Source: Sphingomonadaceae bacterium (lineage in GTDB: Bacteria > Pseudomonadota > Alphaproteobacteria > Sphingomonadales > Sphingomonadaceae). Taken from it: DNA of 50,464 bases. The notes below the pieces were generated by a model that did no database searches, was not told the origin of the DNA, and saw only the letters and a program-made list of their open reading frames with translations. The translations under genes and the position numbers were made by a program. Below are positions 39,860-45,425 of this stretch, in pieces (position 1 is the stretch's first letter; the number at the start of each line of letters is the position of its first letter). The stretch spans positions 1-50,464 of the forward strand of contig CANJSX010000001.1 of NCBI GenBank assembly GCA_947477055.1. Direction: 5' to 3'.

Positions 39860-40624
39860 TCAATCCTGCGTCAGGCGCAGCGCGGCGGCGGGCAGGCCGA
39901 AGGTCCGCCGGAAAGTGCGGCTGAGATGCGCCGAATCCGCAAAGCCGGCCTCATGCGCCGCCTCGGTCAGTGAGCAGCCCCGCGCATAGAGCTCGACCGC
40001 ACGCTCGAGCCGCAGCCACAGGACATAGGCCTTGAACGGCATTTGCGTATGCTCGGCAAACAGATGCCGCGCCCGGCCTTCGGAGAGATGGACCTGCGCC
40101 GCCGAAGCGGGGAGCGTGACGGTGCCGTCGAGCCGGCTCCGGGCGAAATCGATCATCGCCAGCACGCGCCAGTCGGGCAGATCGGGGCGCGCGACCTGCG
40201 CGAGCGCGGCCACGACGCTTTGGCCCAGCTCCCGAAATTCCTGCGCCGACAGGTTGCGCGCAAATCCCTCGCGCAGCTGCCCGACCGCATCCGCCAGCGG
40301 ACCGCGATCTTCCGCCACCCAGGGTCGCGCGGTGAGGTGCGCCGCAATCAGCGCCCGCCCCGCCTGGCTTTCCGGCGCCACGAACAGGAAGGCGACCGCC
40401 CCGCTGCCGCGAAAGGTGTGGCGCTGATCCGAGGCGACGGCGGTAACGGCGCCCGAGAGCGTTTCACGCTCAACCCCTATCTCGAAGCTGCCGCGCAAGG
40501 GGACGGTCAGCTGGATCGCGTGATGCGCGTGCGGCTCCACTTCGGCGATGCGATCGGCATTCTCAAGGATCCAGAGGCTCGCGGCCTCCCAGACCATGAT
40601 CCGTCCCTGGCCGACGACTGCCAT
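39860..40624 (-). CDS. AraC-family transcriptional regulator with His-rich cupin N-domain
   Basis: N-terminal PHAHHAIQ motif; C-terminal LS.GRARHLF...YVLWLRL...LTEAAHEAGFADSAHLSRTFRRTFG. Confidence 0.93.
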   Translation of the reverse strand: MAVVGQGRIMVWEAASLWILENADRIAEVEPHAHHAIQLTVPLRGSFEIGVERETLSGAVTAVASDQRHTFRGSGAVAFLFVAPESQAGRALIAAHLTARPWVAEDRGPLADAVGQLREGFARNLSAQEFRELGQSVVAALAQVARPDLPDWRVLAMIDFARSRLDGTVTLPASAAQVHLSEGRARHLFAEHTQMPFKAYVLWLRLERAVELYARGCSLTEAAHEAGFADSAHLSRTFRRTFGLPAAALRLTQD

Positions 40625-40719
40625 GTCATGCCCACCCCAAGTCAGCCGCTGCGTTCAATTCCCCATGCGATTCGCAATGTAGCAGGGCTTCACCACCAAC
40701 CGAACCACAGGAGTTCACC

Positions 40720-40857
40720 ATGACCAAGACCTGCCAATGCAACCCTTGCACCTGCAACCCCTGCAACTGCGCCACGGCTCAGCAGAGCTGCCGCTGCGCC
40801 CCGTCTTGCAACTGCGGCCCCAATTGCCGCTGCGCTGATTGCGTGGGCGCCAAGTGA
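40720..40857 (+). CDS. Metallothionein-like small Cys-rich protein (45 aa, 13 Cys)
   Basis: MTKTCQCNPCTCNPCNCATAQQSCRCAPSCNCGPNCRCADCVGAK; SD AGGAG 6 nt before the ATG; all 13 Cys codons are TGC. Too short for the ORF track. Confidence 0.85.
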   Translation: MTKTCQCNPCTCNPCNCATAQQSCRCAPSCNCGPNCRCADCVGAK

Positions 40858-40867
40858 CCTCAAACCG

Positions 40868-42466
40868 TCAGCGCCGGGCCTTCCGGCGCTGGCGATGGTC
40901 CGCATAGCTATCGAGCACCTTGCGCATTCCCTCGATCGCCTTCTGCCGCGCCGCATCGTCCCGGATCCGCGAAAGTTCGCGCTTCAGACCGGTGGCGAAG
41001 TCGGCGTAGCTGTTCTGCCAGTCGCGTCCCAGAGCCTGGCTGAGGTCAGCACGGCCGGTGCGAATGCGCTTCGCCGGTTTGCCCGGTTCGAGCGCATAGG
41101 CCTCGCCGATCTGCGGCAAGGTCACGGCCTGCTCCGGCAAATGCGACTGAACCTGGCGGCGCAGCTCCTCCAGCGCACCCTCCTCGCCGTGATCGAGGAA
41201 CAGCGTGCCGGCAATCGGCCCCCTCCCTTCGATCCATTTCAGCAGCTCCTGCTGGTCGGCATGGGCGGAATAGTGATCGATCCGCCGGATCGCGGCCCGC
41301 ACCGTCACGTCCTCGCCCGAGATCCGCACCCGCTGTGCACCGTCGAGGATCACCCGGCCAAGGCTGCCCTGCGCCTGGAAGCCCACGAACAGCACGGTCG
41401 AATCCCGGCGGTGGAGGTTGTGGATCAGGTGATGCCGGATCCGCCCCGCTTCGCACATGCCCGAAGCGGCCAGAATGATCGCCCCCGACACAGAGTTGAG
41501 CCGGATTGACTGGGCGACATCCTCGACAAAATGGAAGTTGGGATGGCGGAAGATGTCGCGCCCGGCGGTATCTTCCAGCTCGGCCGAATAGCGCGAGAAC
41601 ACGCTGGTGGCGCGGGTCGCCAGGGGGGAATCGATGAACACCGGGATGTCGGGCAGGTTCCCCGCATCCATCAGCATCGCGATATCGAGCAGCAACTCCT
41701 GTGTGCGCTCCAGCGCGAAGGAGGGGATGACGAGATTGCCGCCGCGCACGATGGCGCCCCGGATTTCGGCCTCGAGCAGCTTGCGCCGTTCGGGAATCGT
41801 AACCTTCTCGCGGGTGCGGTCACCATAGGTACTCTCGCAGACCACGTGATCGAAACAGCATGGCCCCTCGGGATCGGCCTGGAACGCCTTGTTCTCAGGC
41901 CCGATGTCGCCCGAGCATATCAGCTTGACCCCGCCGGCCTCGATTTCCGCCGAAGCCGCGCCGAGGATATGGCCGGCGTTCCAGAACCGCGCCCGGAAGC
42001 CCTTGGCGGGTTCGAACCATTCTTCCAGCGCGTGCACCTGCGCCTGCTTCCAGGCGGCGATGGCATCCATCTCGGTATAGAGCGGCTCGAAGCCCGGATC
42101 GCCCGCGCGGTCACGCCGGCGATTGCGGCGGGCAGTGTCGGCCTCCTGGATGCGGCCGGCATCGGCGAGCATGTATTCCAGCAGGTCGCGGGTCGCTGCG
42201 GTGCAATGGATCGCGCCGGTGAAGCCCTTGGCAACCAGCCGCGGCAACAGGCCCGAGTGGTCGATATGGGCATGGGTCAGCACCACCGCATCGATCGAGC
42301 GTGGATCGAAGGCGAATTCGCCGGTGTTGAGCACTTCGAGCGAGCGCGAGCCCTGGAACAGCCCGCAATCGACGAGGATGCGGCTCGATCCCAGCTCGAG
42401 CAGCATGCAGGAGCCGGTGACGGTCCAGGCCGCCCCGTGGAACGAGAGGGTGAGCGGGGTGGTCAT
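40868..42466 (-). CDS. MBL-fold beta-CASP ribonuclease (YSH1-like)
   Basis: VTGSC, VDCGLFQG, THAHIDHSG, AGHILG, ESTYGDR, ASGMCEAGRIRHHL, SAHAD. Confidence 0.92.
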   Translation of the reverse strand: MTTPLTLSFHGAAWTVTGSCMLLELGSSRILVDCGLFQGSRSLEVLNTGEFAFDPRSIDAVVLTHAHIDHSGLLPRLVAKGFTGAIHCTAATRDLLEYMLADAGRIQEADTARRNRRRDRAGDPGFEPLYTEMDAIAAWKQAQVHALEEWFEPAKGFRARFWNAGHILGAASAEIEAGGVKLICSGDIGPENKAFQADPEGPCCFDHVVCESTYGDRTREKVTIPERRKLLEAEIRGAIVRGGNLVIPSFALERTQELLLDIAMLMDAGNLPDIPVFIDSPLATRATSVFSRYSAELEDTAGRDIFRHPNFHFVEDVAQSIRLNSVSGAIILAASGMCEAGRIRHHLIHNLHRRDSTVLFVGFQAQGSLGRVILDGAQRVRISGEDVTVRAAIRRIDHYSAHADQQELLKWIEGRGPIAGTLFLDHGEEGALEELRRQVQSHLPEQAVTLPQIGEAYALEPGKPAKRIRTGRADLSQALGRDWQNSYADFATGLKRELSRIRDDAARQKAIEGMRKVLDSYADHRQRRKARR

Positions 42467-43115: not shown

Positions 43116-45425
43116 TCAGTCGTGCTTCTTGTCGCGAGTCGAGCTGACCATGCCCGGTGCGATGAAGCCGATCGGATTGACCGCCATCGCCCGCATCTTC
43201 AGCTCACCCTTCATTTTGGCATACTCCGCCTCCATTTCCGCCGTCACAGTGGCGCGGGAATCGGCCAGCGCGTCGGTGAAGTCCGAAGCGTCGACCGTAT
43301 CGGCGGCCTCGCCATGCTTGCGGATCGCGGCGAGGCCGGCGCGGCGCACCACGTCTTCGAGGTCGGCGCCGGTGAAGCGTTCGGTCTGGGCGGCGATGCT
43401 GGTGAGCTTGACGTCATCGGCCAGCGGCATCTTCGCGGTGTGGATCTTCAATATATGCTCGCGCCCGGCTGCGCTGGGCGTGCCGACATAGACCAGTTCA
43501 TCCAGCCGGCCCGGGCGCAGCAGCGCCGGATCGACCAGCCCCGGCCGGTTGGTCGCGCCGATCAGCACGACCGAGGAGAGCTCCTCCATCCCGTCCATCT
43601 CGGCGAGGATGGTGTTGACCACCCGCGCCGTGACCTGCGGCTCGCTGGCGTTGGAACTGCCGCGGGCCGGGACCAGGCTGTCGATCTCATCGATGAAGAT
43701 CACGCAGGGCGCGACCGCGCGGGCGCGGGCGAACAGTCGGCTGATCTGCTGCTCGCTCTCGCCATACCATTTGGACAGCAGGTCCGAGCTCTTGATCGAG
43801 ATGAAATTCGCCTCGGCCTCCTTGGCGACGGCCTTGGCCAGCAGGGTCTTGCCGGTGCCGGGCGGGCCATAGAGCAGGAACCCCTTGGCCGGGCGGATCC
43901 CGAGCCGGCGGAAGGCGTCCGGGTTGCGCAGGGGCAGCTCAATCCCTTCCTTGAGCTTGAGCTGCGCCTCGTCGAGCCCGCCGATGTCGGCCCAGCCGAT
44001 GTTCGGCACCTGCACCATCACTTCGCGCATGGCGGAGGGCTGGACGCGCTTGAGCGCGGCGAGGAAATCATCGCGCGTCACCGAGAGGTTTTCGAGCACC
44101 TCGGCGGGGATCGTCTGCGCCTCGAGATCGAGCTGCGGCATGATCCGGCGGACGGCATCAATCGCCGCCTCGCGGGCCAGCGCGGCAATATCGGCGCCGA
44201 CGAAGCCGTGGGTGGTGCGTGCCAGCTCGTTCAGATCGACATCTTCCGCCAGCGGCATGCCGCGGGTGTGAATGCCCAGGATCTCGCGGCGGCCGGCCTC
44301 GTCGGGCACGCCGATCACGATCTCGCGATCGAACCGGCCGGGGCGGCGCAGCGCCTCGTCGATCGCGTCGGGGCGGTTGGTGGCGGCGATCACGACGATG
44401 TTCGAACGGGTATGCAGCCCATCCATCAGCGTCAGCAGCTGGGCAACCAGCCGCTTCTCCGCCTCGCCATGCACCTGCTCGCGCTTGGGGGCGATCGAAT
44501 CGATCTCGTCGATGAAAATGATCGAGGGCCCCGAACGCGCGGCTTCCTCGAACACGTCGCGCAGGCGCTTTTCGCTCTCGCCATAGGCGCTGCCCATGAT
44601 CTCGGGCCCGTTGATCGTGAAGAAGCTCGCCTCGCTCTCATTGGCGACGGCCTTGGCGAGGCGGGTCTTGCCGGTGCCCGGCGGGCCGTGCAGCAGCACG
44701 CCCTTGGGCGGATCGACCCCGAGCCGGGTGAACAGCTCGGGATAGCGCAGCGGCAGCTCGACCATCTCGCGCAGCTGGCGGATGGTGTCGCCGATCCCGC
44801 CGACATCGTCATAGTTCACATCGGCCCGGTTACCGCGCGCTTCCTCGAACTCCTCGCGCAGCTCGACCTCAGTGTTCTCGTCAATATGGACGATGCCCTT
44901 GGGCACGGTCGAGACCACGGTCAGGCGGATTTGCGTCAGCGCATAGGCCGGGGCGTTGAACATCCGCGCCACCTGCGGCGGCATGTCGCGGACCTGCTGC
45001 TGCCCGGTGGTGGCGACGACATCGCCGGCGACCAGCGGACGGGCAAAGAAGTTGCGCTTGAGCGCCTCGGTCGGCCCCTGGAGGCGCATTTCCTTCTGCG
45101 CCGGGGCGAAGATGACGCGCTGCGCCGGGCGGGATTCGGCCTTGCGGACGGTAACGTGATCGCCCGCGCCGATTTCGGCATTGGCGCGCTGCAACCCGTC
45201 GAGGCGAATCACCTCGAGCGCCTCGTCCTCGGTATAGGCCAGCACCGCACGGGCCGCCGTGGCCCGCTTGCCGACGATCTCGATCGTATCGCCCTCTGTG
45301 ATCCCGAGCGCGCCCAGCGCGGATTTGGGCAGCCGGGCGATGCCCTGGCCGCTTTCTTCCTGCCGCGCCGCTGCGACCTGCAGCCGCACCTCGCGCGCCA
45401 TCGTATCCGCGTCCTTGTCCGCCAT
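43116..45425 (-). CDS. CDC48/p97/VAT-family AAA+ ATPase
   Basis: N-domain (IRLDGLQRANA), two AAA modules each with GPPGTGKT, FIDEIDS and ATNRP...DxALxRPGR; MREV linker. Confidence 0.95.
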   Translation of the reverse strand: MADKDADTMAREVRLQVAAARQEESGQGIARLPKSALGALGITEGDTIEIVGKRATAARAVLAYTEDEALEVIRLDGLQRANAEIGAGDHVTVRKAESRPAQRVIFAPAQKEMRLQGPTEALKRNFFARPLVAGDVVATTGQQQVRDMPPQVARMFNAPAYALTQIRLTVVSTVPKGIVHIDENTEVELREEFEEARGNRADVNYDDVGGIGDTIRQLREMVELPLRYPELFTRLGVDPPKGVLLHGPPGTGKTRLAKAVANESEASFFTINGPEIMGSAYGESEKRLRDVFEEAARSGPSIIFIDEIDSIAPKREQVHGEAEKRLVAQLLTLMDGLHTRSNIVVIAATNRPDAIDEALRRPGRFDREIVIGVPDEAGRREILGIHTRGMPLAEDVDLNELARTTHGFVGADIAALAREAAIDAVRRIMPQLDLEAQTIPAEVLENLSVTRDDFLAALKRVQPSAMREVMVQVPNIGWADIGGLDEAQLKLKEGIELPLRNPDAFRRLGIRPAKGFLLYGPPGTGKTLLAKAVAKEAEANFISIKSSDLLSKWYGESEQQISRLFARARAVAPCVIFIDEIDSLVPARGSSNASEPQVTARVVNTILAEMDGMEELSSVVLIGATNRPGLVDPALLRPGRLDELVYVGTPSAAGREHILKIHTAKMPLADDVKLTSIAAQTERFTGADLEDVVRRAGLAAIRKHGEAADTVDASDFTDALADSRATVTAEMEAEYAKMKGELKMRAMAVNPIGFIAPGMVSSTRDKKHD

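What the first reader, a model, noticed from the sequence alone, without database searches (positions are those of the whole stretch)
40720..40857. Unannotated His-free, plant-like metallothionein gene (45 aa, 13 Cys)
Seen: an ORF below the length cutoff with a clear AGGAG SD. It has six CxC motifs in two clusters (CQC-NP-CTC-NP-CNC and CRC-APS-CNC-GPN-CRC-AD-C) split by a short linker, with no His or aromatic residues. Established: characterised bacterial MTs (SmtA/BmtA, MymT) contain His and have a different Cys spacing, whereas CxC-rich two-cluster layouts typify plant type 1 and Cu(I)-preferring MTs; CTCNPCNC recalls the plant C-terminal CxCxPCxC. Inference: a possibly undescribed sphingomonad MT class.
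Basis: partly seen in the sequence, partly recalled or inferred. Interest (0 to 1): 0.88.

Follow-up and report, generated by a model that had tools for sequence, protein, structure and literature searches.

The report
Overlooked bacterial metallothionein with AraC switch
This tiny cysteine-packed gene is real and belongs to a scattered, mostly unannotated bacterial family that sits beside one particular AraC-type regulator and that regulator's predicted DNA site; it likely encodes a metal-soaking protein (a metallothionein) switched on by metal overload, which would add a new family to the few known in bacteria.

Summary
Observation confirmed: 40720-40857 (+) encodes 45 aa with 13 Cys, six CxC motifs, no His or aromatic residues, and an AGGAG ribosome-binding site. 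It is a conserved gene: relatives keep 12 Cys columns and favour the sense frame.

59 of 80 AraC loci carry a Cys-rich ORF within 400 bp. Searching from the peptide, 15 of 19 hits have both AraC and box. Elsewhere the box precedes multicopper oxidases, phytochelatin synthase and YtkA, but also hydrolases and reductases.

The family is not BmtA/SmtA, is not confined to sphingomonads, and is plant-like in layout only. Best reading (0.6): a new bacterial metallothionein family activated by an AraC with a His3-Gln cupin site, copper favoured. Expression and metal binding are unmeasured.

My paper searches found no description. One member is named 'Metallothionein' in UniRef, and this scan noted what reads as the same system before on other DNA (e1-9996209, e1-9915909).

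The parts
40720..40857 (+). Metallothionein-like gene, 45 aa, 13 Cys (six CxC in two clusters), no His or aromatic residues, no signal peptide
   Evidence: homologues; coding signature
40709..40713 (+). Shine-Dalgarno AGGAG, 6 nt before the ATG
   Evidence: GGAG invariant in the 4 aligned loci
40643..40659 (+). Conserved 17-bp box, consensus YAGCC-S-Y-T-N-CGTTCAA-K; inferred AraC operator overlapping the -35 region
   Evidence: upstream of 64 of 69 Cys-rich ORFs; only site scoring 16 bits or more in the own genome; 1-2 copies per genome, all at this locus, in 5 of 5 genomes
40680..40685 (+). Inferred -10 element: a conserved TA dinucleotide at a fixed distance, 20 nt after the box
   Evidence: T in 58 of 64 and A in 60 of 64 sites; window position; the generic sigma-70 scan found no promoter here
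39860..40624 (-). Divergent AraC-family regulator, 254 aa: N-terminal cupin domain and C-terminal HTH_18; inferred activator of the metallothionein-like gene
   Evidence: HTH_18 above cut-off; cupin fold; linkage
40418..40531 (-). Codons of the invariant cupin residues H32, H34, H35, Q38 and H69; predicted His3-Gln metal site
   Evidence: 92 of 92 and 94 of 94; same H-x-H-x3-Q...H pattern as the copper site of CelOCE (PMC11946906), a structural neighbour
40866..40894 (+). GC-rich hairpin just after the stop codon, overlapping the end of the convergent gene; likely 3' end of a monocistronic transcript
   Evidence: z = -4.15; z below -2 after 50 of 69 members; no U-tract, so not called by the terminator scan

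Best explanation
The ORF is a conserved gene, and it likely encodes a cytoplasmic metallothionein of a family not yet described in bacteria, predicted to be switched on by the neighbouring cupin-AraC protein under metal overload, most likely copper. Shown by sequence comparison: the gene, its coding signature, its tight linkage to this one AraC subfamily, and a conserved 17-bp box at a fixed distance from a -10-like TA. Inferred steps, in order: (1) the AraC binds the box with its two helix-turn-helix motifs and activates transcription as a class II activator next to the -35 region; (2) occupancy of its H32/H34/Q38/H69 cupin site by a metal is the signal; (3) a short monocistronic mRNA ending at the hairpin is translated; (4) the unfolded peptide wraps Cu(I), or Zn/Cd/Ag/Hg, in thiolate clusters with its 13 Cys and lowers the free-ion level. 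In this genome the peptide is the only predicted target of the regulator.
For: Peptide anatomy: 29% Cys, and 93% of family Cys lie in CxC motifs. The longest hydrophobic run in 69 members is 4 residues, so there is no export signal. The nearest named look-alikes are all metallothioneins, though weak: Pfam E 0.006-0.03, below cut-off; PDB 6qk5 Cd-MT at E 0.023; Atlas scores of 0.82 or less for a stored homologue. Linkage from the regulator side: 59 of 80 loci have a Cys-rich ORF within 400 bp, against about 0.4% expected. Linkage from the peptide side: 15 of 19 metagenome hits and 5 of 5 same-genus hits have AraC and box. The same box directly precedes multicopper oxidases (L052, L055, L058, L082, L084), phytochelatin synthase (L103, L111) and YtkA, mostly followed by a di-haem peroxidase (L070, L088, L097, L110, L114). 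A metal-class gene lies in 27 of 80 loci versus 0.9% of random own-genome windows. In Caulobacter sp. 17J80-11 (L050) a second family member has a CueR-type box (consensus recalled) and is divergent from a heavy-metal P1B ATPase. The regulator's invariant residues match the His3-Gln copper site of CelOCE.
Against: No expression, DNA-binding or metal-binding data exist for any member. The commonest neighbours are not obviously metal genes: alpha/beta hydrolases in 29 of 80 loci, an unannotated membrane protein in 31 of 80, Zn-type dehydrogenases in 14 of 80, plus DJ-1/PfpI, NAD(P)H-binding and thioredoxin-reductase-like genes. 16 of 80 AraC loci have no Cys-rich ORF in the fetched flank. His3-Gln cupins bind several metals and usually use the metal to hold an organic ligand (recalled); the fold hits include Mn, Zn, Fe and Cu cupins. 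H32-Q38 were part of the search pattern, so their invariance is partly circular (H69 and W18 were not). The 0.9% control comes from one small genome, and the loci are related to each other. [quoted passage not shown] Lys and Asn content gives no clear metal preference across the family (4.8% versus 5.4%).
Confidence: 0.6

Rival explanations
1. The peptide is a sacrificial thiol sink in an electrophile, oxidant or xenobiotic response. The AraC cupin uses a bound metal only as a cofactor to recognise an organic or oxidant signal, and metal chelation is secondary.
For: The box also precedes DJ-1/PfpI, thioredoxin-reductase-like, Zn-type dehydrogenase, NAD(P)H-binding and alpha/beta hydrolase genes. 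Structurally similar AraC proteins bind organic ligands (ToxT, Rns, BgaR).
Against: Rigid CxC spacing is a metal-cluster pattern that plain thiol buffering would not need. One member sits under a CueR-type box beside a heavy-metal ATPase (L050). The regulator has no conserved Cys (40 of 91 near-full-length sequences have none), unlike thiol-based oxidant sensors (recalled).
Confidence: 0.2
2. It is a metallothionein used for storage or supply rather than detoxification: a metal reservoir for cuproenzyme maturation or for starvation survival.
For: Co-regulated YtkA, multicopper oxidase and di-haem peroxidase genes would need metal cofactors. The Pseudomonas MT helps starvation survival and not resistance (PMC7387436).
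Against: In the window and in 4 of 5 genomes checked the box occurs only once, before the peptide gene, with no client enzyme. Phytochelatin synthase under the same box points to detoxification.
Confidence: 0.13
3. It is a RiPP precursor or a disulfide-knotted secreted peptide rather than a thionein.
For: Weak PDB hits to squash-type cystine knots (E 0.33-1.4). One member hits a Cys-rich RiPP model at E 0.047.
Against: No leader or signal peptide. No modifying enzyme among the flanking genes or among the recurring neighbour clusters I annotated (not all clusters were annotated). No MNIO (PF05114) gene in the 92%-complete own genome. Cys numbers vary from 7 to 15, odd and even.
Confidence: 0.04
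4. It is not a real gene: a chance or antisense-shadow ORF.
For: An 88-aa open frame overlaps on the minus strand (40690-40956), and the same-register antisense frame is stop-free in 71 of 80 members. No gene caller recorded this peptide.
Against: Conserved ribosome-binding site, start codon (79 of 80 ATG), box and spacing; TGC/TGT exchange at Cys columns; pN/pS 0.50 sense versus 1.13 antisense. Cys codons read as Ala or Thr on the other strand, which explains the open antisense frame.
Confidence: 0.02

Closest known systems
Bacterial BmtA/SmtA metallothioneins (Pfam PF02069; Synechococcus SmtA, Pseudomonas MTs)
   Same: Small, Cys-rich, cytoplasmic, and for SmtA encoded divergently from its regulator (recalled).
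   Different: No PF02069 match for any of 67 members or in the own genome. 29% Cys versus about 16% and about 60 aa given for canonical bacterial MTs (PMC13578184). No His ligands, whereas the Pseudomonas MT has Cys9His clusters (PMC7387436). The regulator is an AraC activator, not an SmtB/ArsR repressor.
Mycobacterial MymT
   Same: About 5 kDa, originally a non-annotated ORF, binds Cu(I) (PMC7558416): the best functional precedent.
   Different: No library match was seen, but I did not establish that these libraries hold a MymT model. MymT has His and is under a CsoR-family repressor (both recalled).
Plant type 1 metallothioneins (family 15)
   Same: Six CxC motifs split evenly between two clusters by a Cys-poor linker, and similar size (46-aa BnMTL; PMC6722885). 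The CxC-x3-CxC-x3-CxC unit occurs in 53 of 80 members.
   Different: No significant sequence match (PF01439 not listed; PF02068 16.8 bits against a cut-off of 31.8). Many members have only one cluster (29-33 aa) or extra repeats. Convergence and transfer cannot be told apart on so short a sequence.
Fungal and insect Cu-thioneins (Neurospora MT, Drosophila Mtn; recalled)
   Same: Short CxC-repeat peptides without aromatic residues. The nearest named Atlas cluster for a stored homologue is PF02067 (score 0.82, a lead only).
   Different: Eukaryotic, with unrelated regulators; no alignment-level homology shown.
AraC/XylS class II activators (MarA/SoxS box geometry, recalled; ToxT, Rns, CuxR fold)
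   Same: Cupin plus double-HTH architecture and a single site at a fixed distance upstream of a -10-like element.
   Different: The N-terminal domain matches no Pfam or NCBIfam model and keeps a full His3-Gln site. AraC is not among the 12 metalloregulator families in a 2024 review (PMC11672702, outline and term search of the held first half).

Membership tests
Metallothionein superfamily | Small size, high Cys content in CxC-type motifs, few or no aromatic residues | tested here: met
   45 aa, 13 Cys, no F/W/Y; family median 45 aa, 23% Cys
Metallothionein superfamily | Stays in the reducing cytoplasm with free thiols (no export signal) | tested here: met
   Longest hydrophobic run in 69 members is 4 residues; location is inferred from sequence
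Metallothionein superfamily | Binds several metal ions in thiolate clusters | not testable with these tools
   Needs ESI-MS and spectroscopy of the purified peptide
Metallothionein superfamily | Expression induced by metal | not testable with these tools
   Needs RNA data or a reporter; only indirect context is available
BmtA/SmtA (family 14) | Match to PF02069 | tested here: not met
   No hit for the peptide, for 67 members, or in the own genome; the control search hit Synechococcus
BmtA/SmtA (family 14) | His ligands, and aromatic residues of the zinc-finger fold | tested here: not met
   0 His and 0 aromatic residues
MymT | Sequence homology to MymT | tested here: inconclusive
   No Pfam or NCBIfam hit, but no direct comparison with a MymT sequence was made
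Plant type 1 MT | Six CxC motifs split 3+3 by a Cys-poor linker | tested here: met
   against the definition in PMC6722885
Plant type 1 MT | Homology to plant MT profiles above the curated cut-off | tested here: not met
   PF02068 16.8 bits against 31.8; best E among 67 members 0.0058
Cys-rich RiPPs (bufferin, ranthipeptide types) | Co-encoded modifying enzyme and a leader or signal peptide | tested here: not met
   Flanking genes are AraC, a transhydrogenase and a beta-CASP hydrolase; no PF05114 in the own genome, 92% complete; no signal peptide
AraC/XylS regulators (neighbour gene) | C-terminal HTH_18 domain with an N-terminal cupin-type sensor domain | tested here: met
   PF12833 67.8 bits against 33.6; N-domain model pLDDT 93.5, best cupin match Z 10.3, rmsd 2.7 over 82 residues
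Metalloregulators (neighbour gene) | Metal binding changes DNA binding or activation | not testable with these tools
   Only the conserved His3-Gln pattern and the gene context are available

The most novel reading that the evidence does not exclude
A three-part module (cupin-AraC, 17-bp operator, CxC metallothionein) spread thinly across several bacterial phyla is a further family of bacterial metallothionein, and its regulator is an AraC protein that senses a metal ion, probably copper, directly through a His3-Gln cupin site: a class of bacterial metalloregulator missing from current lists.
Probability: 0.4. Interest if true: 0.88.

Novelty: new variant of a known kind. Interest (0 to 1): 0.72.

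Why it matters
Bacterial metallothioneins are described as rare, with characterised examples largely in cyanobacteria, mycobacteria, Salmonella and Pseudomonas (PMC13578184; PMC7558416). This family suggests the rarity is partly an annotation gap: 7 of 10 members looked up were absent from a 15-billion-protein collection. It supplies His-poor, eukaryote-style thioneins of 29-63 aa from cultured bacteria for direct study. The module is compact (regulator, box, peptide), so whether an AraC protein can be a direct metal sensor becomes testable with one reporter plasmid. It would also be a candidate biosensor or metal-recovery part.

Tried and rejected
Single-peptide search of the protein collection found no candidate. 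Profile searches gave only 5 and 22 unnamed proteins, some of them Cys-rich repeats in longer proteins.

Of 49 same-family genomes with a hit at E 0.1 or better, only 3 were real. I inspected 8 weak-hit loci (L002, L006-L009, L011-L013) and none held a family ORF.

The sigma-70 promoter and terminator scan found nothing. No RNA holder was listed for the locus; this is no evidence either way.

A PDB sequence search with the cupin profile gave only E of 0.7 or more; BacB aligned at the H-x-H-x3-Q motif at E 1.1. The Atlas did not hold the window peptide, so a stored homologue was used.

The AraC tree is the quick version. It shows the divergent and downstream arrangements clustering, and I draw no order of events or donor from it.

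No GC anomaly marks the module as a recent insertion. Flanking synteny is not conserved in relatives, so an empty site could not be shown. The Lys/Asn heuristic for metal preference (PMC7796288) is uninformative family-wide.

Paper searches listed no paper on this family or regulator; the library lacks most subscription papers. Li et al. 2020 (AEM e02907-19) and Gold et al. 2008 were not held. Five family motifs were absent from the 4 supplementary files of PMC11705764 held as text, but its 500+ predicted metallothioneins may be deposited elsewhere, so overlap with those sets is not excluded. No complex prediction was run.

Full report
1. The observation. Window 40720-40857 (+) reads as a 45-aa ORF with a TGA stop. 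It has 13 Cys at positions 5, 7, 10, 12, 15, 17, 24, 26, 30, 32, 36, 38 and 41, and no His, Phe, Trp or Tyr. AGGAG lies 6 nt before the ATG. The exact peptide is not in the 15-billion-protein collection, although both neighbouring proteins are. A loose scan of the 2.1-Mb own genome gave 10 small Cys-rich ORFs, of which by my reading only this one has regular CxC spacing.

2. It is a real gene. Six-frame searches found clear homologues in 3 of 200 same-family genomes (58-65% identity), 5 of 150 same-genus genomes and 1 of 400 same-phylum genomes. It is therefore a sparse accessory gene. In 30 unique close relatives, chosen by their N-terminal CxC-x-PC-x-C pattern, 12 Cys columns hold 28-30 of 30, with TGC and TGT interchanging. 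Uncorrected pN/pS is 0.50 on the sense strand and 1.13 on the antisense strand; synonymous sites are near saturation, and the first four columns are circular. Across 80 collected members, 79 start with ATG, 93% of Cys lie in CxC, 15 contain a His and 9 an aromatic residue. The open antisense frame follows from Cys codons reading as Ala or Thr.

3. The gene is divergent from a 254-aa AraC-family gene at 39860-40624. All three first homologues have the same divergent gene. Searching the same 200 genomes with the regulator gave 5 hits, and all five have a Cys-rich ORF nearby, two of them shorter forms of about 30 aa. Of these 80, 59 carry a Cys-rich ORF within 400 bp: 45 downstream and co-oriented, 13 divergent, 1 convergent. 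Five more have one further away (one of these, L075, looks spurious), and 16 have none in the fetched flank, two of them cut at a contig end. Chance expectation is about 0.4%. The reverse test is independent of the regulator: of 19 metagenome hits found with the peptide alignment, 15 have both the AraC gene and the box (several are near-copies, and one has only the AraC end), and the other 4 are Cys-rich stretches in longer or AT-rich ORFs. All 5 same-genus hits have both, and the phylum hit L154 carries a decayed copy of the module. Named carriers include Sphingomonadales, Caulobacteraceae, Hyphomonadaceae, Rhodospirillaceae, Acetobacteraceae, Burkholderiales and Gemmatimonadota.

4. A dedicated operator. 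A 17-bp box (window 40643-40659) lies 53-79 nt upstream of 64 of 69 Cys-rich ORFs, followed at a fixed distance by a conserved TA (58 and 60 of 64). The 69 exclude ORFs without a ribosome-binding site, except L038, and one junk ORF in L095 that I dropped by hand; alignment A4 used 67 of them, leaving out two near-duplicates. The box occurs once in the own genome and once or twice, always at this locus, in 5 of 5 other genomes. 78 of 80 AraC loci have a box before some gene. In 42 of 45 downstream arrangements the first three bases of the box are the AraC stop codon. This geometry fits a class II AraC activator (recalled); binding is inferred, not shown. A hairpin follows the stop (z -4.15; z below -2 in 50 of 69 members against mononucleotide shuffles), and the next gene is convergent, so the peptide is probably the sole output here.

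5. What the regulon suggests. Where other genes follow the box, they include multicopper oxidases (5 loci), phytochelatin synthase (2 directly, 1 as second gene) and YtkA, mostly with a di-haem peroxidase (5 loci). A metal-class gene (P1B ATPase, multicopper oxidase, CueR-like, DUF411, YtkA, peroxidase, phytochelatin synthase) lies in 27 of 80 loci versus 0.9% of random own-genome windows. That control is weak and the loci are related. In Caulobacter sp. 17J80-11 a second family member lacks the AraC box, has a CueR-type box (consensus recalled) and is divergent from a heavy-metal P1B ATPase. Against a purely metal reading: alpha/beta hydrolases (29 of 80), an unannotated membrane protein (31 of 80), Zn-type dehydrogenases (14 of 80), DJ-1/PfpI, NAD(P)H-binding and thioredoxin-reductase-like genes are as common or commoner.

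6. The sensor. The N-terminal domain models confidently (pLDDT 93.5) as a cupin (best Z 10.3, rmsd 2.7, 82 aligned); Foldseek neighbours include CelOCE and other metal cupins. H32, H34, H35 and Q38 are invariant in 92 of 92 and H69 in 94 of 94 sequences, and no Cys is conserved. Residues 32-40 were one of the two search patterns; H69 was not. CelOCE binds copper through H44, H46, Q50 and H84 (PMC11946906, passage read), the same pattern. I could not inspect the site geometry. Such sites take several metals and often serve to hold an organic ligand (recalled), so direct metal sensing is a hypothesis at about even odds.

7. Mechanism. Shown: the gene, its linkage, the box and the conserved residues. 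Inferred: AraC activation at the box, metal as the signal, thiolate-cluster binding by the peptide, and copper as the main metal. I put the whole chain at 0.6, an electrophile or oxidant sink at 0.2, storage rather than detoxification at 0.13, a RiPP or disulfide peptide at 0.04 and an artefact at 0.02. The Pseudomonas MT, which is not needed for metal resistance (PMC7387436, passages read), is a warning against assuming detoxification.

8. Comparison with what is known. It looks built like a metallothionein but fails membership of BmtA/SmtA. It matches the plant type 1 layout (PMC6722885, passage read) but not plant profiles. No member matches NCBIfam beyond one E 0.047 hit. A 2026 paper lists characterised bacterial MTs as cyanobacterial, mycobacterial, Salmonella and Pseudomonas (PMC13578184, passages read); a 2020 review names SmtA homologues and MymT (PMC7558416, passages read). 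A 2024 review lists 12 metalloregulator families without AraC (PMC11672702, outline plus term search of the held first 300,000 of 606,000 characters). I also read part 1 of 4 of PMC13519478 and passages of PMC7796288, PMC5756572 and PMC11705764.

9. Novelty. Nine paper searches listed no description of this family or regulator. Limits: two metagenome-mining studies of bacterial MTs could contain members (one was not held; the other's held supplements showed none of five family motifs). UniRef names one member 'Metallothionein', probably automatically. Earlier unchecked notes of this scan describe what reads as the same AraC-metallothionein regulon on other genomes, and a parallel Bacteroidota system under an HMA-AraC regulator. 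My reading was stated before seeing them, and they are not counted as evidence. Verdict: a new variant of a known kind, interest 0.72.

Noticed in passing
L050:366-521 (-) and L050:562-582: A second family member in Caulobacter sp. 17J80-11 lacks the AraC box and instead has a CueR-type box, divergent from a heavy-metal P1B ATPase inside a copper gene cluster.
   Followed up: partly
L059:881-1030, L073:6955-7122, L082:61-213, L084:696-848: Metallothionein-like ORFs, three of the four in Myxococcota records, that share a different upstream motif beginning TGTAAT instead of the AraC box; a second regulator may control them.
   Followed up: no
42 of 45 downstream-type loci among L037-L116: The AraC stop codon TAG doubles as the first three bases of the operator box.
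   Followed up: yes
L103:6985-7524, L111:3099-3800, L086:5802-6887: Bacterial phytochelatin synthase genes under the same box, in two loci with no AraC-linked metallothionein ORF in the flank (L086, L111): possible functional replacement.
   Followed up: partly
L003:928-1368 (-), L088:3506-3910, L065:6016-6801: A 135-146-aa membrane protein with no Pfam match, sometimes fused to DUF3703, hits 31 of 80 loci and is often directly under the box; function unexplained.
   Followed up: partly
L129:231-293; proteins P0031 and P0037: Similar CxC repeat blocks occur inside longer proteins: before a short-chain-dehydrogenase-like sequence (recognised by eye), after an HMA-like motif (by eye), and before a GrpE domain.
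   Followed up: no
L154:1501-1599 (-): Decayed module: an AraC C-terminal remnant, a degenerate box and a metallothionein-like ORF that has lost some Cys.
   Followed up: partly
window 43116-45425 (-): A CDC48/p97-type AAA ATPase with CDC48_N, CDC48_2 and two AAA domains in a bacterial genome.
   Followed up: no
window 40868-42466 (-): A beta-CASP metallo-beta-lactamase-fold protein of 532 aa, convergent with the peptide gene; its last codons overlap the hairpin. Best NCBIfam hits are far below cut-off.
   Followed up: no
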